DNA of 64,000 nt from Phallusia mammillata (lineage: Eukaryota): positions 28,458,001 to 28,522,000 of the forward strand of contig OZ281496.1 of the NCBI GenBank assembly GCA_965637545.1, read 5' to 3'. This document shows positions 39,689 through 51,600 of this stretch, one piece after another. A program made the position numbers. Each line of letters opens with the position of its first letter. Positions within the stretch are counted from its first letter, which is position 1.

Positions 39689-42600
39689 TTTTCAATGTGA
39701 ATTAACGCAAATAACGTTGAATATAAATTCAATCATTGGTACGTGCGCGTGCCATTAGTTAGTAAATATTGATCAATTCGGTTGGTCGTGTAACAAAGGC
39801 TAACACAAGTGTAGTTTTCTGCACCTTGTTTTCGCATATAGGAGTATACACTGCAGTATACCCAATGCGATAAGAATCTGTAGCAATACGATCCCTAAAA
39901 AAACAGTTTTGTTTGCAAATTTTCTACAATAGAGTTATAGAGCTGACGTAGCGCTTTTAAGCCAAAGCCCTGCAGAATATTGAGTTGTACTTACATTTTA
40001 GTTCTAAACCTTAACATGGAAGCTTGGATTTCGCAGCAGAGAAAAATCTAATAAGCGGTGTATGAAGATGTTTTGAATCAAAAATATACTCATGTAGAAA
40101 ATATCTTTACCCAAGAACACTGAATGTGCTTGTTATTATATAAGGGTGATTCCAGCAGATACGAACAAATAAGCTTAACGGCACTCATAAATCAGTATGC
40201 AAGAGCAGACCGCGATTGTTAATCCCGATTTAGATTTAACGATACTTTTTTTTGTAACATCAAAGGCAAGCATTATTGATTTTTCCATAGAGAGGTAAAC
40301 AGGACCTAAAAATGCCAATTGTGTGCTGAAATCGATATCTTTATGTCGTTCAATAATGCACAGATTGTTACCATGTGCTAAAATCTTCAGCTGTTCTATC
40401 AAAACTAAAAAGCTATTAATACGATAGATTAGATTACCGACTTAAACGTAAATGTTCCAACAAATCTCAAACGAAAAATATGGTGCAGTTGCTACACATA
40501 TTTTGTCCGATAAGTCGGATAAATGTTTTAATACTGCCGGTAGAGCGAAAAGAGATGTTATATTTTTTCGGCTTACATGAGCCATAACGGTGGACTGATA
40601 ATGCCAGCGACATTGTGTTACTAAAACTTACTTTATCTATTTAGGTGTAATGTTTGTTATCATGTAAAATATCTGTGACACTTGATTACTATGGCAAGTA
40701 CTGCAACGCTCCGTATCAAGCTGTTTCGATCTGACACAAGCTGGCTTAAAAATAACCGTAAGGAGCCGGTCCAACGACTGTTGCAGGATTCAATCGAGCA
40801 AGTAGTCACAGAGGAATCAAGTTCAACTTTCGAAAAGGTTCTTACTGATTGCGCTGAAATATGCAGTATCACGCCTATCTATTTGCCGCTTTTCGGGCTA
40901 AAGAATAAGAAAACTTCGCACTGGACGAACCTGGCTTCAACGATACAAAGTTATCTTCAGGAGCAGAGTACGGATGATAGCGATTCGTTGAGTTTATTGT
41001 CTACAGTGTTGGAACTGGAATTCAGAATCCGGTTCCAGTTTAAAGGTGATGCTTTCCGGGTGTCCGAAGAAAACGGAAATACATATCCGGTATACGACCG
41101 GACATTGATTTATCTTTTTCATCAGCATCGGGAAGACTTCCGTTTTGGGCGGCTAAAATTTCACGAACGCACTTCAGAGGACGGAGACAAAAACAACTTA
41201 GGACTAGCTGCATTTGACTTGTTAAGGCTGGGACGTGAGGCAAAACTTGATTATCCCGAAGTGAAGAATAGTGTAAAGTTGAAAAGGCTTCTATCGTGCA
41301 GTTATAATGATATCGTATCGTCCAGAAATGGGTTGCAGATGTTATCAGTGAAGCAAATATTGGTAAAGAGGAGATTCGACAATTACCTGATGCAGTTAAA
41401 GACACGCTACAAGCAATCGACAGAAAGCCTACGCGACCAACTGTATTTTCATCATAAATACGTGAACACCCTGGAAGGTCTGTTGCAATTTAATTATGCG
41501 GAAAGTTACGATGTCATTCCGCAAACAGAAGACCCAGACGAATGTGTAAAAGTGTCTGTTGGGCCATACCTCGAAGTCGTCAAGCATTCTGCAAACGATA
41601 CGGTTGGTTCGCAGTGGTGCAAACTTTCGGACCTTGTATGCATCAACATTGCTGAAAAGAATGCATACTGGACAGTGACATTGGTTCATTTCAGTGGTGA
41701 AACACTGTCTGTAGATCTGGCTTCAAAGTGGGAAGCCGAAGGACTGGTCTCTTGCATCGACGGTTACAACTATCTTCTGGTCGATCCACATTACTACTTG
41801 TGCAAGTCGGTTTGCCGACCTTCGCTTGTTGAGCAAATAAGGCTTTCCTGCCATGGATGTATTTCTTTTGCGCTGGCTTCCCATCTACTAAAGAATCATC
41901 CCAATCCCAGAACCGGAGACTGTATATTAAGATGCAGCAGCGACGAATTCCAAGCTTACTTCATCACTACGATCTCTCAACTCGAACAAGATGGACAAAA
42001 CTTGATCAAAAACTTCAAAATTGCTCGCGATGCAAACGGTTTTGGAATATATGGAGCGGAGAGCCGCCATGAAACTTTGGCCAGTTTGCTTGAAGAGTAC
42101 AAAGATGGTTACGCGAGCAGGATGCAGTTTGAAATTTCGCGGTTGCGACATCCGTTGGTCAAGCAGCAATGTTCAATTTTAGTTCACAAAGGCAAAGAGA
42201 TCAACCCGATTACTACATCCGAACCTACCGAGGTTCCATTAATTTCTCAAGATGCTTACTCTTATGTTGAAAAACTAGGAGGTGGAATGTTTTCGGATGT
42301 TATTCTCCACAAGGATGAAGCCAACAAACTTGTTGTTATCAAACAGATGATTGAGGTTTCGGACTACGGAATACGTCAACACGTTCAGAAATCATTCCAA
42401 GATTCAAGGATCCGCTTCAAACAGCTCAACAACTTCATGGAGGCTGGCCAAAACAAAAGCAAACACATTTTGCAAATTCTTAGTTTTTCTATGCACACAA
42501 ACGTCGTTCTCGAGTACATGCCTTTGGGCTCGATAACAGATCATCTGAGAAAACGCAAAGAATCCCTTGACCAGGATTTGACGTTGCACTTCGTAAGACA

Positions 42601-48600: not shown

Positions 48601-51600
48601 TCCACAGCCATTCCTAGTATTAATGGTGACAAATGGAGCTTTGCAACAACAGTATGTGAAATATGTCATTGGAGTTTGTCCAGTAGTTTCTGCAGGCCTG
48701 AAAACGCTTATGGTCTCAAACCAAATCTTAAAGAAAGGTTCCGAGATCAAGAACAACCAGTTGTTTCACTTCCAGACATGTTAATGGCACCAGAGTTAAA
48801 AACAGTTAGAAATCTGCTGATGAAATGCTGGAGTATTTGGCCTGAAAACAGACCGGCCTTCAGACACATTCTTCGGGAACTTGGTGCAGTTTCAAGCAAC
48901 TTTGACTACCAAAATGTAGAACTTCCACAAACTGCGCCAGAGGAAATTCTACCCGACTTGGATGTATATGATGACCAAAATTTGATGACAGTGCGTTCTT
49001 TGGGAAATGGGCATTTTGGTTACGTTGACTTGTGTCAGTATGACAGGTATCGTAATGGTCAAAATGAACCAGTGGCTGTAAAGTCACTTATTCGGAACGC
49101 TAACAACCAGAAGTACCGCAATATTTTGTACAATGAAATCCAGACAATGCGCCAAATCAATCATCGCTATGTGGTAAAACTGAAAGGAGTTACATTCCCA
49201 TCTGTAAGGATTGTAATGGAGTACCTTGCATGTGGCCCTTTGGGAAAATATCTCCGGGACAACAGTGGAAAAATGCCTCTTCAAAGTTTGTTTCATCAAC
49301 TGTATGTCTTTTCGAGTCAAATTTCAGATGGAATGCAAGCCTTGCAAGAGCATCGACTGATACATCGTGACCTAGCGCTCAGAAATATATTGCTTAATCG
49401 AGATGGAGAGAACTCACCCTTGTATGTAAAAATCTCTGATTTCGGCCTTTCTCGTGTCGTGAATGAGGAGGAATCGTACTACAGAGGAAACCTTGATGAT
49501 TTTCCTGCATTATGGTATGCTCCTGAGTGCCTATGTCCTTCAGACATATCAGTACCTTTTCAGTTTGAGTCTGATGTGTGGTCATTTGGAATTACAATTT
49601 GGGAGATGTTTTCATTCGGAGAAAAAAAGCCAAGGTACCCTTCCTTACCCTCAGTCAAAAGAGAAGACATTGGAAAACTGAGAGAACTGCTGTCAAATGG
49701 GGAAAGGCTTTTGCAGCCTGAGCACTGTCCTCCTGAGGTGTATGATATAATGGGTTTGTGCTGGCAGTTCAACCCACAAGCAAGAATTGGGTTCAATGAT
49801 CTGCAGCAACGCTTTATTGCCCTAGCTGGTAATGCATAGTATGCAAATACTGATCTTTAATGACTGTCTTGGCAATATGGTACATTAAGACAATAGTATA
49901 CAACGCAATCCTGTTCAATTTGGGTTAGATACTATGTTTCAAAAATGTGCAATACATAACACTTTGGAGAAATAATTTGCTTTTCATCACATAATTTTAT
50001 AAAAACATACAAAATTGCGGTTGCAGTTTAATCATGTAGATATGTTGTTGTATTGTTCAGCTGAATGTCAGCATGCACTTTTTTACTTGTTTTCATTCTT
50101 TTGAAATCATTTTCATGAGTTTTATGTGTATCAAACCAAAAAAATTCATTCTTGTGTGTTACTGAATCTGCCTTATGTTTTTTTTACCATTTTTATGTTG
50201 TTGTTGTTGTTGTTTTGTATAACACCCCAGAATGAACTTATCAAACATTTTCAAATTCCGCTCTATGCTTTTACATTTTCACATTTAGTCTGGTACTTTA
50301 TGTAATTGACAAACCTTTCAAATTTGTTGGTGCATATCTACTAATTTTGTGCGACTGCATAATGCTGCAGTTTCCAGTAATACAGTAACACAATAGTTGC
50401 AGCACAGCATACAGACTGCTGGGCCGGTTGCACCAAAAGGCCTGACACATTTGATATCTCCTTCCTGTATTGTTTTCCATTTAAACTCTATTTGTAGTTT
50501 CATGTGGTTGGCTCTGCTATCATCCTTGTTATCGATTGTGTTTTGTTGCTACTGTTGTAATATACTCATTATCCAGTGTTACTTGGAATGGGTCTGGTTA
50601 TTGTGAACCTCAATAAAGGTTACAGAAAAGTCTTTCAAATGACAAATTGTAAACTTTTTCTTGTATTTCTTAGTTCAGTGTGTAAACACAGTAGCCACTT
50701 CATCACAATTTGCTAAATTTTATATAGAATGACCACACTGTCTACCAGTGGCATTGAAACAGCAGAATATATTGATTGTCCCATAGATTTTATTGTATTG
50801 TTTACACAATAAAGGTGAACGCTACATGTCCTTAAAACTTAACCAGTTTTCAAATTTCAAAGACATAATTTTAATTTGAAATAGGCCTCAATAAAACACC
50901 TAAACCCATGTCTTAAACTACTTTTAATTTGAGTTAGGAGAAATAAAGTACAAGGGGAAAATTAGAAGAAAAATGTTGCTGATTGCCGGTAGAGCGCGGT
51001 CTGCTCAAACACACTGTTTGTACAGTACAGGTGTCAGCTTCATGTTGCTACAAACCTGTTTCCCTAATATGCTGGTTGTGTACTTCTGTTCAGTGACGTA
51101 GGCCAGGCCAATGCACTGGTGGGGGAAAAGTTTGGTTTAAAAACTTCTATTGTTTGGGGGGGGGGGGGGGGGGGGGGTTAACCTTCGCCAACAGTTTGGT
51201 TACAAAATAGTTTTGTTGCCAGTGAGTTCAAAAATAAGTTACATAAAAGACATATTAAGGGCGTCTGAGCGCAATTATCGTGCATGCTAGAAACCAAAAA
51301 AGGCCTTATGTTTAAAAACTTAAACATAAAAGTGAATTGGAAAATCTCAAAAGTAAGCTAGTTCATATTAGCATCAAAGTTCTGCATCGTGATTGCTATT
51401 AATGAAATAATTCTTTGTACTGCGCGTTGGAGTATAAACGTGTTTTGCGTTGTTACCTGCTTCCCCTTCTGAGGAACCCGAATACCACGTCAAGGCGTCA
51501 GTCAAAGTAGAATCTTACGGTTTGTTAGGCAGGCACTGGAACATTGCTGACAAAATTTAGCAAAGCACCAAATGCCCTTTCTTTAACAAGGTCAAAACAA

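What the first reader, a model, noticed from the sequence alone, without database searches (positions are those of the whole stretch)
40691..49839. Two tandem JAK genes with completely intronless 3.4-kb coding sequences
Seen: both ORFs encode a full FERM-SH2-pseudokinase-kinase protein in one exon, each with an acceptor just 5' of the ATG. Neighbouring genes are intron-dense (CesA has 28 exons). The two proteins are deeply diverged, and both keep catalytic motifs and activation-loop YY. Established: vertebrate JAK genes have more than 20 coding exons. Inference: retroposition, or wholesale intron loss through cDNA recombination, followed by an old tandem duplication. This would be a JAK diversification independent of vertebrate JAK1/2/3/TYK2.
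Basis: partly seen in the sequence, partly recalled or inferred. Interest (0 to 1): 0.65.

Follow-up and report, generated by a model that had tools for sequence, protein, structure and literature searches.

The report
Two tandem intronless JAK kinase genes
A sea squirt (Phallusia mammillata) carries two neighbouring Janus kinase genes, each written as one uninterrupted 3.4-kb coding block, made by an old duplication private to its own lineage; it is a modest but real exception to the rule that invertebrate chordates have a single JAK.

Summary
Window 40691-44044 (JAK-A, 1117 aa) and 46447-49839 (JAK-B, 1130 aa) are intact ATG-to-stop frames on the + strand. Each encodes FERM, SH2, pseudokinase and kinase. 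JAK-B is 1129/1130 identical to the public Phallusia mammillata "JAK Janus kinase" and has the same ends, so its coding sequence is uninterrupted. JAK-A was not found in the searched protein collections.

The two are 43-45% identical and synonymous sites are saturated. In a maximum-likelihood tree of 12 tunicate JAKs rooted on fish JAK2 they are sisters (100/100). Two older-duplication topologies are rejected (AU p = 4e-4 and 1e-6). The duplication is therefore old but specific to the Phallusia lineage, and independent of vertebrate JAK1/2/3/TYK2. JAK-A evolves about twice as fast but keeps 159 of 184 tunicate-invariant residues and all catalytic motifs.

Most likely an already intronless JAK was duplicated in tandem. 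How and when the introns were lost is inference. I could not inspect exon structure in Ciona or other tunicates, and indirect hints suggest intronless JAK may be widespread in ascidians.

Two details were not verified: "CesA has 28 exons", and the JAK-A acceptor, which is weak and lies 46 nt upstream of the ATG. Interest is moderate.

The parts
40691..44044 (+). JAK-A: complete single-ORF coding sequence, 1117 aa plus stop. This is the fast-evolving paralogue.
   Evidence: It was not found as its own entry in the word-indexed collection, and it has no close relative among the representatives above 1000 bits.
46447..49839 (+). JAK-B: complete single-ORF coding sequence, 1130 aa plus stop. This is the conserved copy.
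   Evidence: It is 1129/1130 identical to public P. mammillata 'JAK Janus kinase' A0A6F9DET0, with the same first and last residue.
40799..41830 (+). JAK-A FERM region (about residues 37-380)
   Evidence: Pfam FERM_F1 residues 37-85 (22.5 bits, below the 26.1 cut-off) and FERM_F2 residues 137-264 (37.9 bits). PDB JAK2 FERM-SH2 E = 9e-30 over residues 47-500.
41846..42109 (+). JAK-A SH2 domain (residues 386-473)
   Evidence: Pfam SH2_1 35.7 bits, cut-off 27. R414 is invariant in the 12-sequence alignment.
42257..43090 (+). JAK-A pseudokinase JH2 (about residues 523-800; borders approximate)
   Evidence: Second PK_Tyr_Ser-Thr stretch. LGGG at 529-532, HGN at 652-654 and DPG at 675-677 are read and invariant.
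43190..43981 (+). JAK-A kinase JH1 (residues 834-1097)
   Evidence: PK_Tyr_Ser-Thr E = 2e-103. K864, E881, HRDLALRN 958-965, DFG 983-985 and YY 996-997.
46549..47556 (+). JAK-B FERM region (about residues 35-370)
   Evidence: Pfam FERM_F1 31.6 bits and FERM_F2 64.1 bits; Jak1_Phl and FERM_C are below their cut-offs. PDB JAK2 FERM-SH2 E = 6e-44.
47608..47787 (+). JAK-B SH2 domain (Pfam stretch, residues 388-447; the domain probably extends further)
   Evidence: SH2_1 20.1 bits, below the cut-off of 27. The PDB JAK1 FERM-SH2 alignment reaches about residue 502.
48025..48891 (+). JAK-B pseudokinase JH2 (about residues 527-815; borders approximate)
   Evidence: Second kinase stretch. LGGG, HGNIRGKN and DPG are read.
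48988..49812 (+). JAK-B kinase JH1 (residues 848-1122)
   Evidence: PK_Tyr_Ser-Thr E = 5e-100. HRDLALRN, DFG and SYYRG.
46420..46440 (+). Candidate 3' splice or SL trans-splice acceptor of JAK-B (T-rich tract, then ttttatacAG, 6 nt before the ATG)
   Evidence: Its use is not shown.
40625..40644 (+). Weak candidate acceptor of JAK-A (ctttatctatttAG, 46 nt before the ATG, followed by two short upstream ATGs)
   Evidence: Its use is not shown.
44045..46446 (.). Spacer of 2.4 kb between the JAK-A stop and the JAK-B ATG. It holds the JAK-A 3' UTR with candidate poly(A) signals, and two inverted arrays of a 31-nt repeat (45835-45995 and 46090-46222).
   Evidence: 0 of 7 ORFs here had a Pfam hit.

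Best explanation
The window comes from the ascidian Phallusia mammillata. It holds two functional Janus kinase genes, head to tail and 5.76 kb apart. Each has its whole FERM-SH2-pseudokinase-kinase coding sequence in one exon.

The most economical history has three steps. (1) An ancestral multi-exon JAK lost all its coding introns. This most likely happened through a reverse-transcribed mRNA that replaced the gene by recombination, or that was retroposed and took over. (2) The already intronless gene was later duplicated in tandem by unequal crossing-over, within the Phallusia lineage and after it had separated from the lineage of Ciona and the other sampled tunicates. (3) The copies diverged asymmetrically. 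JAK-B stayed close to the ancestral tunicate JAK. JAK-A evolved about twice as fast, most strongly in the SH2-linker part of the receptor-binding module. JAK-A nevertheless kept every catalytic and regulatory hallmark, so it probably signals from a different receptor chain or in a different context.

Shown: the ORFs, the domains and motifs, the absence of coding introns, the sister relationship, the rate asymmetry and the constraint on JAK-A. Inferred: the RNA-mediated mechanism, the order of events, the functional divergence and the expression of JAK-A.

The date of the intron loss is open. It may be much older than Phallusia.
For: ORFs and the chance expectation.

Architecture: Pfam; best PDB hit is full-length JAK1, 7t6f; 7 of 7 PDB hits of each N-terminal half are JAK FERM-SH2.

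Species and an uninterrupted CDS for JAK-B: (1129/1130 identity, same ends).

No in-frame hidden intron: (largest private insertion is 3 aa in A and none in B).

Sisterhood: (100/100; 14 rows, 1160 columns). AU tests reject 'A outside all other tunicate JAKs' (p = 4.4e-4) and 'B + Ciona + P0016 without A' (p = 1.1e-6). Shared derived states sit at positions invariant in the other 10: G>E at A295/B293, D>F at A805/B819, and a 9-column insertion.

Age: pS 0.81, so dS is not computable, and dN is 0.52. Only two coding stretches still match at the DNA level, and no flank similarity remains.

Asymmetry: end branches are 1.24 versus 0.55. Tajima tests give 152 versus 82 unique changes with Ciona as outgroup (p = 5e-6), and are significant with 4 of 4 outgroups tried.

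Constraint on JAK-A: the 1117-codon frame is open, and 159 of 184 columns invariant in the other 10 tunicate JAKs are kept, against about 37% overall identity.

Tandem adjacency in one orientation makes DNA-level duplication far likelier than two retropositions into the same spot (inference).

A precedent in the same pathway is the single-exon Anopheles Ag-STATa, attributed to retrotransposition (PMC3670131, passages).
Against: There is no direct trace of an RNA intermediate. No A-run of 8 or more lies within 2.5 kb downstream of either gene. Target-site duplications were not looked for.

No RNA data were available, so the expression of JAK-A, the 5' ends, and any intron in the UTRs are unknown.

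The groups used in the AU tests were named after the tree had been seen, which weakens their p-values.

The outgroup is fish JAK2 only. Vertebrate JAK1, JAK3 and TYK2, amphioxus and other invertebrates were not included.

Gene conversion between tandem copies could in principle make an older duplication look lineage-specific.

That the public JAK-B protein derives from mRNA is recalled, not checked.

JAK-A's Pfam FERM_F1 score and JAK-B's SH2_1 score are below the curated cut-offs, although the PDB matches cover those regions.
Confidence: 0.75

Rival explanations
1. The intronless coding sequence is not an event of this locus or lineage. JAK lost its coding introns in an early ascidian or tunicate ancestor, and all that happened in Phallusia is an ordinary tandem duplication.
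For: Ten other tunicate-type JAKs of 1111-1175 aa in the collections are collinear end to end with the two ORFs. Nine are unnamed; the tenth is the UniRef-named Ciona F6TV83.

There are signs of bacterial-style ORF calling on genomic contigs. P0034 begins with M where all 12 tunicate JAKs have V or L in the conserved 'TT[VL]CEI' motif. P0009 carries a 39-aa non-conserved N-terminal extension. P0008 and P0009 are listed from contigs of 390 kb and 687 kb without a name. If those full-length proteins are single genomic ORFs, the intronless state spans several ascidian lineages.

In Ciona, 15% of non-operon genes and 38% of operon genes are single-exon (PMC2760879, passages).
Against: They could be spliced gene models or transcript translations.

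Three tunicate-like representatives are only fragments: 404, 426 and 479 aa. That could mean introns in those species.

No tunicate genome could be read here.
Confidence: 0.55
2. One copy is a processed retrocopy of the other that happened to insert next to its parent. Alternatively, both are independent retrocopies of a spliced parent elsewhere.
For: Both copies lack coding introns. A reverse-transcriptase source exists nearby, the BEL/Pao element at 13936-18704.
Against: Insertion within 2.4 kb of the parent, in the same orientation, is improbable for retroposition. If one copy were a retrocopy of the other, the parent should still carry introns, and it does not. No poly(A) remnant is present. 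No third JAK-like protein from Phallusia appeared in the searches, but those collections do not hold the whole proteome.
Confidence: 0.05
3. The duplication predates the split between the Phallusia and Ciona lineages. Sisterhood of A and B would then be an artefact of gene conversion between tandem copies, with JAK-A lost in Ciona.
For: A-B identity (45%) is no higher than B-Ciona identity (44%). Tandem paralogues are prone to conversion.
Against: Support is 100/100, with an internal branch of 0.59 substitutions per site leading to A+B. Both AU tests reject older placements. Identity is fairly even across the four domains, at 31-53%. No JAK-A-like sequence appears among the nine representatives above 1000 bits. 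Published surveys report a single JAK in Ciona (PMC3296744 and PMC3670263, passages).
Confidence: 0.07
4. JAK-A is a silent or decaying duplicate and not a working kinase gene.
For: It evolves about twice as fast as JAK-B. It is absent from the searched public protein collections. It has two upstream ATGs in the putative leader and only a weak acceptor. Its GC3 differs: 0.467 versus 0.336 for JAK-B.
Against: The frame of 1117 codons stays open although synonymous sites are saturated. It keeps 159 of 184 tunicate-invariant residues, and dN stays at 0.52 although synonymous sites are saturated. All catalytic motifs, the YY pair and the SH2 arginine are kept.
Confidence: 0.05
5. The two genes form one transcription unit (an operon in the tunicate sense), resolved by SL trans-splicing at the AG 6 nt before the JAK-B ATG.
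For: The two genes have the same orientation, and a strong acceptor lies directly before the JAK-B ATG. In Ciona about half of the genes are trans-spliced, and operons are rich in single-exon genes, especially as the first gene (PMC1488885 and PMC2760879, passages).
Against: Ciona operons have no intercistronic DNA. Here 2.4 kb lie between the JAK-A stop and the JAK-B ATG. That stretch holds several poly(A) signals, the first at +265, and repeat arrays.
Confidence: 0.08

Closest known systems
Ciona intestinalis JAK (UniProt F6TV83, P0007)
   Same: The same FERM-SH2-JH2-JH1 architecture and length (1138 aa), collinear end to end. It is 44% identical to JAK-B and 38% to JAK-A.
   Different: It is reported as the only JAK of Ciona (PMC3296744 and PMC3670263, passages). 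Phallusia has two. Its exon structure could not be examined here.
Vertebrate JAK2, and JAK1/JAK3/TYK2
   Same: Domain order; HRDLAxRN, DFG and the activation-loop YY in JH1; HGN and DPG in JH2. The best PDB matches are JAK2 FERM-SH2 and full-length JAK1.
   Different: They multiplied by whole-genome duplication. The Phallusia pair has no coding intron, arose by local tandem duplication, and is nested inside the tunicate clade.
Anopheles gambiae Ag-STATa, a single-exon STAT
   Same: A component of the same pathway that became single-exon and survived as a diverged, functional paralogue. It is attributed to retrotransposition (PMC3670131, passage).
   Different: Ag-STATa sits on a different chromosome from its 8-exon parent. 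Here both copies are intronless and adjacent, and no spliced parent is known.
Single-exon genes of ascidian genomes (Ciona KH gene models)
   Same: Single-exon protein-coding genes are common in Ciona: 15% outside operons and 38% inside (PMC2760879, passage). About half of the genes are SL trans-spliced at an unpaired acceptor (PMC1488885). This fits an AG just upstream of the ATG.
   Different: Those statistics are genome-wide and are not about JAK. A 3.4-kb single-exon CDS for a gene that is highly split in vertebrates is at the long end. Trans-splicing of these two genes is not shown.
Drosophila hopscotch
   Same: A single invertebrate JAK with the same architecture, cited as the archetype (PMC3670263, passage).
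   Different: It is not duplicated. It was not compared here by sequence.

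Membership tests
Janus kinase (JAK) family | N-terminal FERM domain (F1, F2 and F3 lobes) | tested here: met
   Pfam FERM_F2 is above the cut-off in both (37.9 and 64.1 bits). FERM_F1 is above the cut-off in B (31.6) and below it in A (22.5, cut-off 26.1). PDB JAK2 FERM-SH2 gives E = 9e-30 for A and 6e-44 for B, and all 7 of 7 hits of each are JAKs.
Janus kinase (JAK) family | Atypical SH2 domain between FERM and the kinases | tested here: met
   Pfam SH2_1 scores 35.7 bits in A (cut-off 27) and 20.1 bits in B (below the cut-off). 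The JAK1 and JAK2 FERM-SH2 alignments extend to about residue 500 in both. The Arg of the LLRxS motif is invariant.
Janus kinase (JAK) family | Pseudokinase JH2 preceding the kinase, with HGN in place of HRD and DPG in place of DFG (hallmark recalled from memory) | tested here: met
   Both have two PK_Tyr_Ser-Thr stretches. HGNIRAKN and DPG in A, and HGNIRGKN and DPG in B, are read. H652, G653, N659, D675 and G677 are invariant in the 12 tunicate JAKs.
Janus kinase (JAK) family | C-terminal active tyrosine kinase JH1 with VAVK Lys, alphaC Glu, HRDLAxRN, DFG and the activation-loop YY | tested here: met
   E = 2e-103 and 5e-100 to PK_Tyr_Ser-Thr. K864, E881, H958-N965, D983-G985 and Y996-Y997 in JAK-A numbering. 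JAK-B has SYYRG.
Janus kinase (JAK) family | Binds cytokine-receptor box1/box2 and phosphorylates STAT | not testable with these tools
   No receptor or STAT of this species was examined. No complex prediction was run.
Vertebrate-type JAK gene structure | Coding sequence split into many exons at conserved positions | tested here: not met
   Both have a single uninterrupted ORF and no private insertions. JAK-B equals the public protein. This is a property of vertebrate genes, not a criterion for the protein family.
Processed retrogene | No introns where relatives have them | tested here: met
   The comparison with vertebrate exon structure rests on PMC3296744 (passage) and on recollection.
Processed retrogene | Remnant of a poly(A) tail at the 3' end, and flanking target-site duplication | tested here: not met
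   No A-run of 8 or more lies within 2.5 kb downstream of either stop. Target-site duplications were not searched for. At this age (saturated dS) their absence is uninformative.
Processed retrogene | An intron-bearing parental gene elsewhere in the genome | not testable with these tools
   Only this 64-kb window of the genome was available. No eukaryotic genome collection was open.
Tandem (unequal crossing-over) duplicates | Adjacent, same orientation, and mutually closest relatives | tested here: met
   The ATGs are spaced 5756 bp apart on the + strand. They are sisters at 100/100, and AU tests reject the alternatives.
Tandem (unequal crossing-over) duplicates | Duplicated non-coding flanks | tested here: not met
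   Only two coding stretches (71% and 78% identity) match between the units, and no flank similarity remains. This is expected after saturation.
Ciona-type SL-resolved operon | Downstream trans-splice acceptor directly abutting the upstream gene's poly(A) site, with no intercistronic DNA | tested here: inconclusive
   The acceptor lies 6 nt before the JAK-B ATG, but it is 2.4 kb from the JAK-A stop, with poly(A) signals in between. The 3' end of JAK-A mRNA is unknown. The operon rule is from PMC1488885.

The most novel reading that the evidence does not exclude
Phallusia (and perhaps the family Ascidiidae) independently evolved a two-JAK signalling system. After a single RNA-mediated event wiped all coding introns from the tunicate JAK, a tandem copy (JAK-A) was retained for a very long time. 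It diverged fastest in the SH2-linker part of the receptor-binding module while keeping an active kinase and pseudokinase. It would then be a neofunctionalised JAK serving a different receptor chain. This would parallel, outside vertebrates, the receptor-specific JAK1/JAK2/JAK3/TYK2 division of labour.
Probability: 0.3. Interest if true: 0.55.

Novelty: new member of a known kind. Interest (0 to 1): 0.35.

Why it matters
Reviews of JAK-STAT evolution state that JAK stayed single-copy from flies to sea squirts and multiplied only with the vertebrate genome duplications (PMC3296744 and PMC3670263, passages). A second JAK that is old and under constraint, in an ascidian used as a developmental model, is an exception. 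It offers a natural experiment on how a duplicated JAK diverges without whole-genome duplication.

The complete absence of coding introns from a 3.4-kb gene that is highly split in vertebrates is a clean case for studying RNA-mediated intron loss in tunicates. It also makes both genes easy to clone and edit.

If intronless JAK turns out to be general in ascidians, only the duplication is new.

Tried and rejected
- Profile search with all 12 tunicate JAKs in the word-indexed collection. It returned 4 hits, of which only the known Phallusia protein is a JAK. This added nothing and used the last search.
- Cluster look-up to name the unnamed representatives.
- P0020 (2911 aa, 1121 bits). I first suspected a fused tandem-JAK model. 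The sequence shows a chain of about ten kinase domains without FERM, so it was excluded from the alignment and the tree.
- Structure prediction of JAK-A from A2. 
- Scan of the bacterial and archaeal genome collection for stray tunicate contigs. It gave 11 loci in MAG records. All match only the JH1 kinase part (query residues 837-1109, 24-51% identity), and none matches FERM, SH2 or JH2. They are not JAK loci. They were not opened or used further, and their true origin was not examined.
- ESM Atlas. JAK-A is not held. The stored Ciona homologue only returned JAK and hopscotch clusters, with no information on gene structure.
- Paper searches. I read listings and, for seven papers, passages. 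None describes an intronless or duplicated tunicate JAK. PMC11094015 and PMC11728170 mention Ciona JAK, but the 'intron', 'JAK' and 'Janus' passages shown say nothing on gene structure.
- CesA exon count. ORF-by-ORF Pfam scanning found GT2 in 1 and GH6 in 2 of 127 minus-strand ORFs. One of the GH6 hits, and 4 unrelated weak hits, are below their cut-offs.
- A wider tree with vertebrate JAK1, JAK3 and TYK2, amphioxus and other invertebrates was not built. The only candidates were unnamed representatives that might include human-derived sequences, so I left them out.
- dN/dS between A and B is not computable because synonymous sites are saturated.

Full report
**What is there**

With the standard code and ATG starts, the only two ORFs of at least 150 aa between 39000 and 51500 are 40691-44044 (+, 1117 aa, here JAK-A) and 46447-49839 (+, 1130 aa, JAK-B). 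Their stop-to-stop frames begin only 4 and 19 codons upstream of the ATG. They are the two longest open frames in the window. Next come two retrotransposon ORFs (1027 and 404 aa), one 665-aa low-complexity frame, and nothing else above 265 aa. A frame this long is expected by chance about 1e-28 times in the window. The window contains no N.

**What they encode**

Both proteins match Pfam FERM_F1, FERM_F2, SH2_1 and two tyrosine-kinase stretches. JAK-A's FERM_F1 score and JAK-B's SH2_1 score fall below the curated cut-offs.

Against PDB sequences, whole JAK-A hits full-length JAK1 best (7t6f, residues 305-1101), followed by an EGFR entry, TYK2 JH2-JH1, many JAK2 kinase domains, and at the tail of the 60 shown RET and SYK. 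The first 520 residues of each protein hit seven sequences, and all seven are JAK2, JAK1 or TYK2 FERM-SH2 or full-length JAK1.

The motifs can be read directly:
- JH1 has the VAVK lysine, HRDLALRN, DFG and an activation-loop YY (FYYKQ in A, SYYRG in B).
- JH2 has HGN and DPG at the corresponding places. These are the JAK pseudokinase signature as I recall it.
- These residues are invariant across 12 tunicate JAKs.

**Species, and the intron question for JAK-B**

JAK-B is 1129/1130 identical to the public "JAK Janus kinase" of Phallusia mammillata (A0A6F9DET0), with the same first and last residue. So the window is ascidian, not human. An independent record (it differs by one residue) annotates exactly this uninterrupted frame as the CDS. 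I recall that those UniProt entries derive from mRNA records, but I did not check this.

Neither protein has a private insertion longer than 5 aa relative to ten other tunicate JAKs. No in-frame intron is therefore hidden in either ORF.

JAK-A did not appear as its own entry in the word-indexed collection when used as the query. No representative above 1000 bits is its close relative.

**Upstream signals**

JAK-B has a T-rich tract and ttttatacAG ending 6 nt before the ATG. For JAK-A the nearest AG is 46 nt upstream (40643-40644), with a modest pyrimidine tract, and two short upstream ATGs follow it.

In Ciona about half of all genes are SL trans-spliced at unpaired acceptors (PMC1488885, passages). 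These AGs could therefore be trans-splice sites as easily as 5'-UTR intron acceptors. DNA alone cannot tell. Candidate poly(A) signals follow both genes.

**Surroundings**

I searched the neighbours ORF by ORF.

- Minus-strand ORFs at 25722-26516 (GT2/cellulose synthase), 22752-23270 and, weakly, 21152-21496 (GH6) identify the tunicate CesA. Only 3 of 127 ORFs gave such hits, so the gene is clearly split. The count of 28 exons is unverified.
- At 724-11670, 13 of the 149 ORFs scanned window-wide outside the JAK, CesA and retrotransposon stretches carry one lectin, EGF or LCCL domain each. All 13 are on the minus strand. This is an intron-dense modular gene.
- A BEL/Pao retrotransposon lies at 13936-18704.

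**History of the pair**

- Divergence. The proteins are 43% (BLASTP) to 45% (aligned columns) identical. Synonymous sites are saturated (pS 0.81) and dN is 0.52. At the DNA level only two coding stretches still match, and the flanks do not.
- Sampling. A profile of five tunicate JAKs, searched against 1.84 billion representatives, gave nine hits above 1000 bits and then a drop to 644 bits. One of the nine (P0020) is a multi-kinase protein and was dropped.
- Tree. I built a maximum-likelihood tree of 14 rows over 1160 columns (LG+C20+F+G4). The rows were JAK-A, JAK-B, Ciona F6TV83, nine unnamed tunicate-type JAKs and two named fish JAK2 as outgroup. JAK-A and JAK-B are sisters at 100/100, on a 0.59 internal branch inside a 100/100 tunicate clade.
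- Alternative topologies. AU tests reject JAK-A outside all other tunicate JAKs (p = 4.4e-4). They also reject JAK-B grouped with Ciona and P0016 without JAK-A (p = 1.1e-6). The groups were chosen after seeing the tree.
- Shared derived states support the same conclusion: G>E and D>F at positions invariant in the other ten, and a 9-column insertion.

The duplication is thus private to the Phallusia lineage and independent of the vertebrate JAK radiation. It is nevertheless ancient.

**Asymmetry and constraint**

JAK-A's end branch is 1.24 against 0.55 for JAK-B. Tajima tests give 152 versus 82 unique changes with Ciona as outgroup (p = 5e-6), and are significant with all four outgroups tried.

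JAK-A still keeps 159 of the 184 columns invariant in the other ten tunicate JAKs (JAK-B keeps 170), although its overall identity to them is only about 37%. Its frame is intact despite saturated silent sites.

A-B identity is lowest in the SH2-linker segment (31%) and highest in JH1 (53%). GC3 differs between the copies: 0.467 in A and 0.336 in B.

**Mechanism**

Two intronless copies lie side by side in one orientation. This is best explained by loss of all coding introns first, followed by tandem duplication. Two retropositions into the same 6 kb, or a retrocopy landing beside a parent that then also lost its introns, are much less likely (inference).

Complete loss of all introns points to a reverse-transcribed mRNA, either recombining with the gene or retroposed and replacing it. 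No poly(A) remnant survives, and at this age none is expected.

The same pathway offers a precedent in the single-exon Anopheles Ag-STATa (PMC3670131, passage).

**What stays open**

I could not read any other tunicate genome. The genome collection holds only prokaryote records. Its 11 hits are kinase-domain-only matches in MAG contigs, which I did not pursue.

Whether Ciona JAK is intronless is therefore unknown to me. Six JAK-directed searches of the held library and a seventh on Ciona single-exon genes and operons returned no paper on it. The two JAK-STAT evolution papers say, in the passages I saw, that Ciona has a single JAK and that vertebrate JAK genes share one exon structure. Their supplements were closed.

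There are indirect hints that intronless JAK is widespread:
- Ten full-length tunicate JAKs are collinear with these ORFs. Nine are unnamed; the tenth is the UniRef-named Ciona F6TV83.
- One fragment (P0034) starts with M where every homologue has V or L. This is the mark of bacterial-style ORF calling on genomic DNA.
- One protein (P0009) has a non-conserved N-terminal extension.

If the full-length proteins were called the same way, the intron loss predates several ascidian lineages. I put this at about 0.55. Single-exon genes are in any case common in Ciona: 15% outside operons and 38% inside (PMC2760879).

**Verdict**

The old tandem duplication independent of vertebrates is shown. The RNA-mediated intron loss is plausible but not demonstrated, and its date is open.
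- The finding is a new member of a known family with an unusual gene structure, and is of moderate interest.

Noticed in passing
window 724-11670, minus strand: Intron-dense modular gene(s). Short ORFs each hold one C-type lectin (724-1071, 4421-4735), EGF/EGF_CA (1488-1883, 5266-5906, 10822-11004, 11467-11670) or LCCL domain (2263-3090, 7005-7668). The order repeats roughly every 3.7 kb, which suggests internal tandem duplication.
   Followed up: partly
window 13936-18704, plus strand: BEL/Pao LTR retrotransposon with long open pol frames: Peptidase_A17 and RVT_1 at 13936-17019, and integrase plus DUF5641 at 17490-18704. GC is about 0.48 against about 0.38 around it. It looks young and possibly intact. 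LTRs were not searched for.
   Followed up: partly
window about 21150-26520 (and beyond), minus strand: Tunicate cellulose synthase CesA, with GT2 and GH6 parts in separate ORFs. It lies directly upstream of the JAK pair, so CesA-JAK linkage could serve as a synteny marker across tunicates.
   Followed up: partly
window 52257-54254, minus strand: A 665-aa open frame, rich in Ser, Arg and Lys and of low complexity. It has no Pfam match and a GC of 0.495. It is the fourth longest frame in the window. It may be a large exon of an unidentified gene.
   Followed up: no
window 45835-45995 and 46090-46222: Two arrays of a 31-nt repeat in inverted orientation (about 5 and about 4 copies). They form a long imperfect palindrome about 220 nt upstream of the JAK-B ATG. 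This could be a MITE-like insertion or a regulatory element.
   Followed up: no
window 39253-39598 and 39657-39687: A 176-nt unit repeated twice, and a (GT)15 microsatellite, about 1 kb upstream of JAK-A.
   Followed up: no
protein P0020, not in the window: An unnamed 2911-aa protein made of about ten consecutive tyrosine-kinase-like domains. It scored 1121 bits against the JAK profile purely through repeated kinase matches. Its origin is unknown.
   Followed up: no
loci L001-L011: Records labelled as bacterial MAGs (Stappiaceae, Nitrospirales, Dehalococcoidia, a sponge symbiont and others) carry animal-type tyrosine-kinase-like stretches. These probably reflect host or eukaryote contamination of the bins. 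They were not examined.
   Followed up: no
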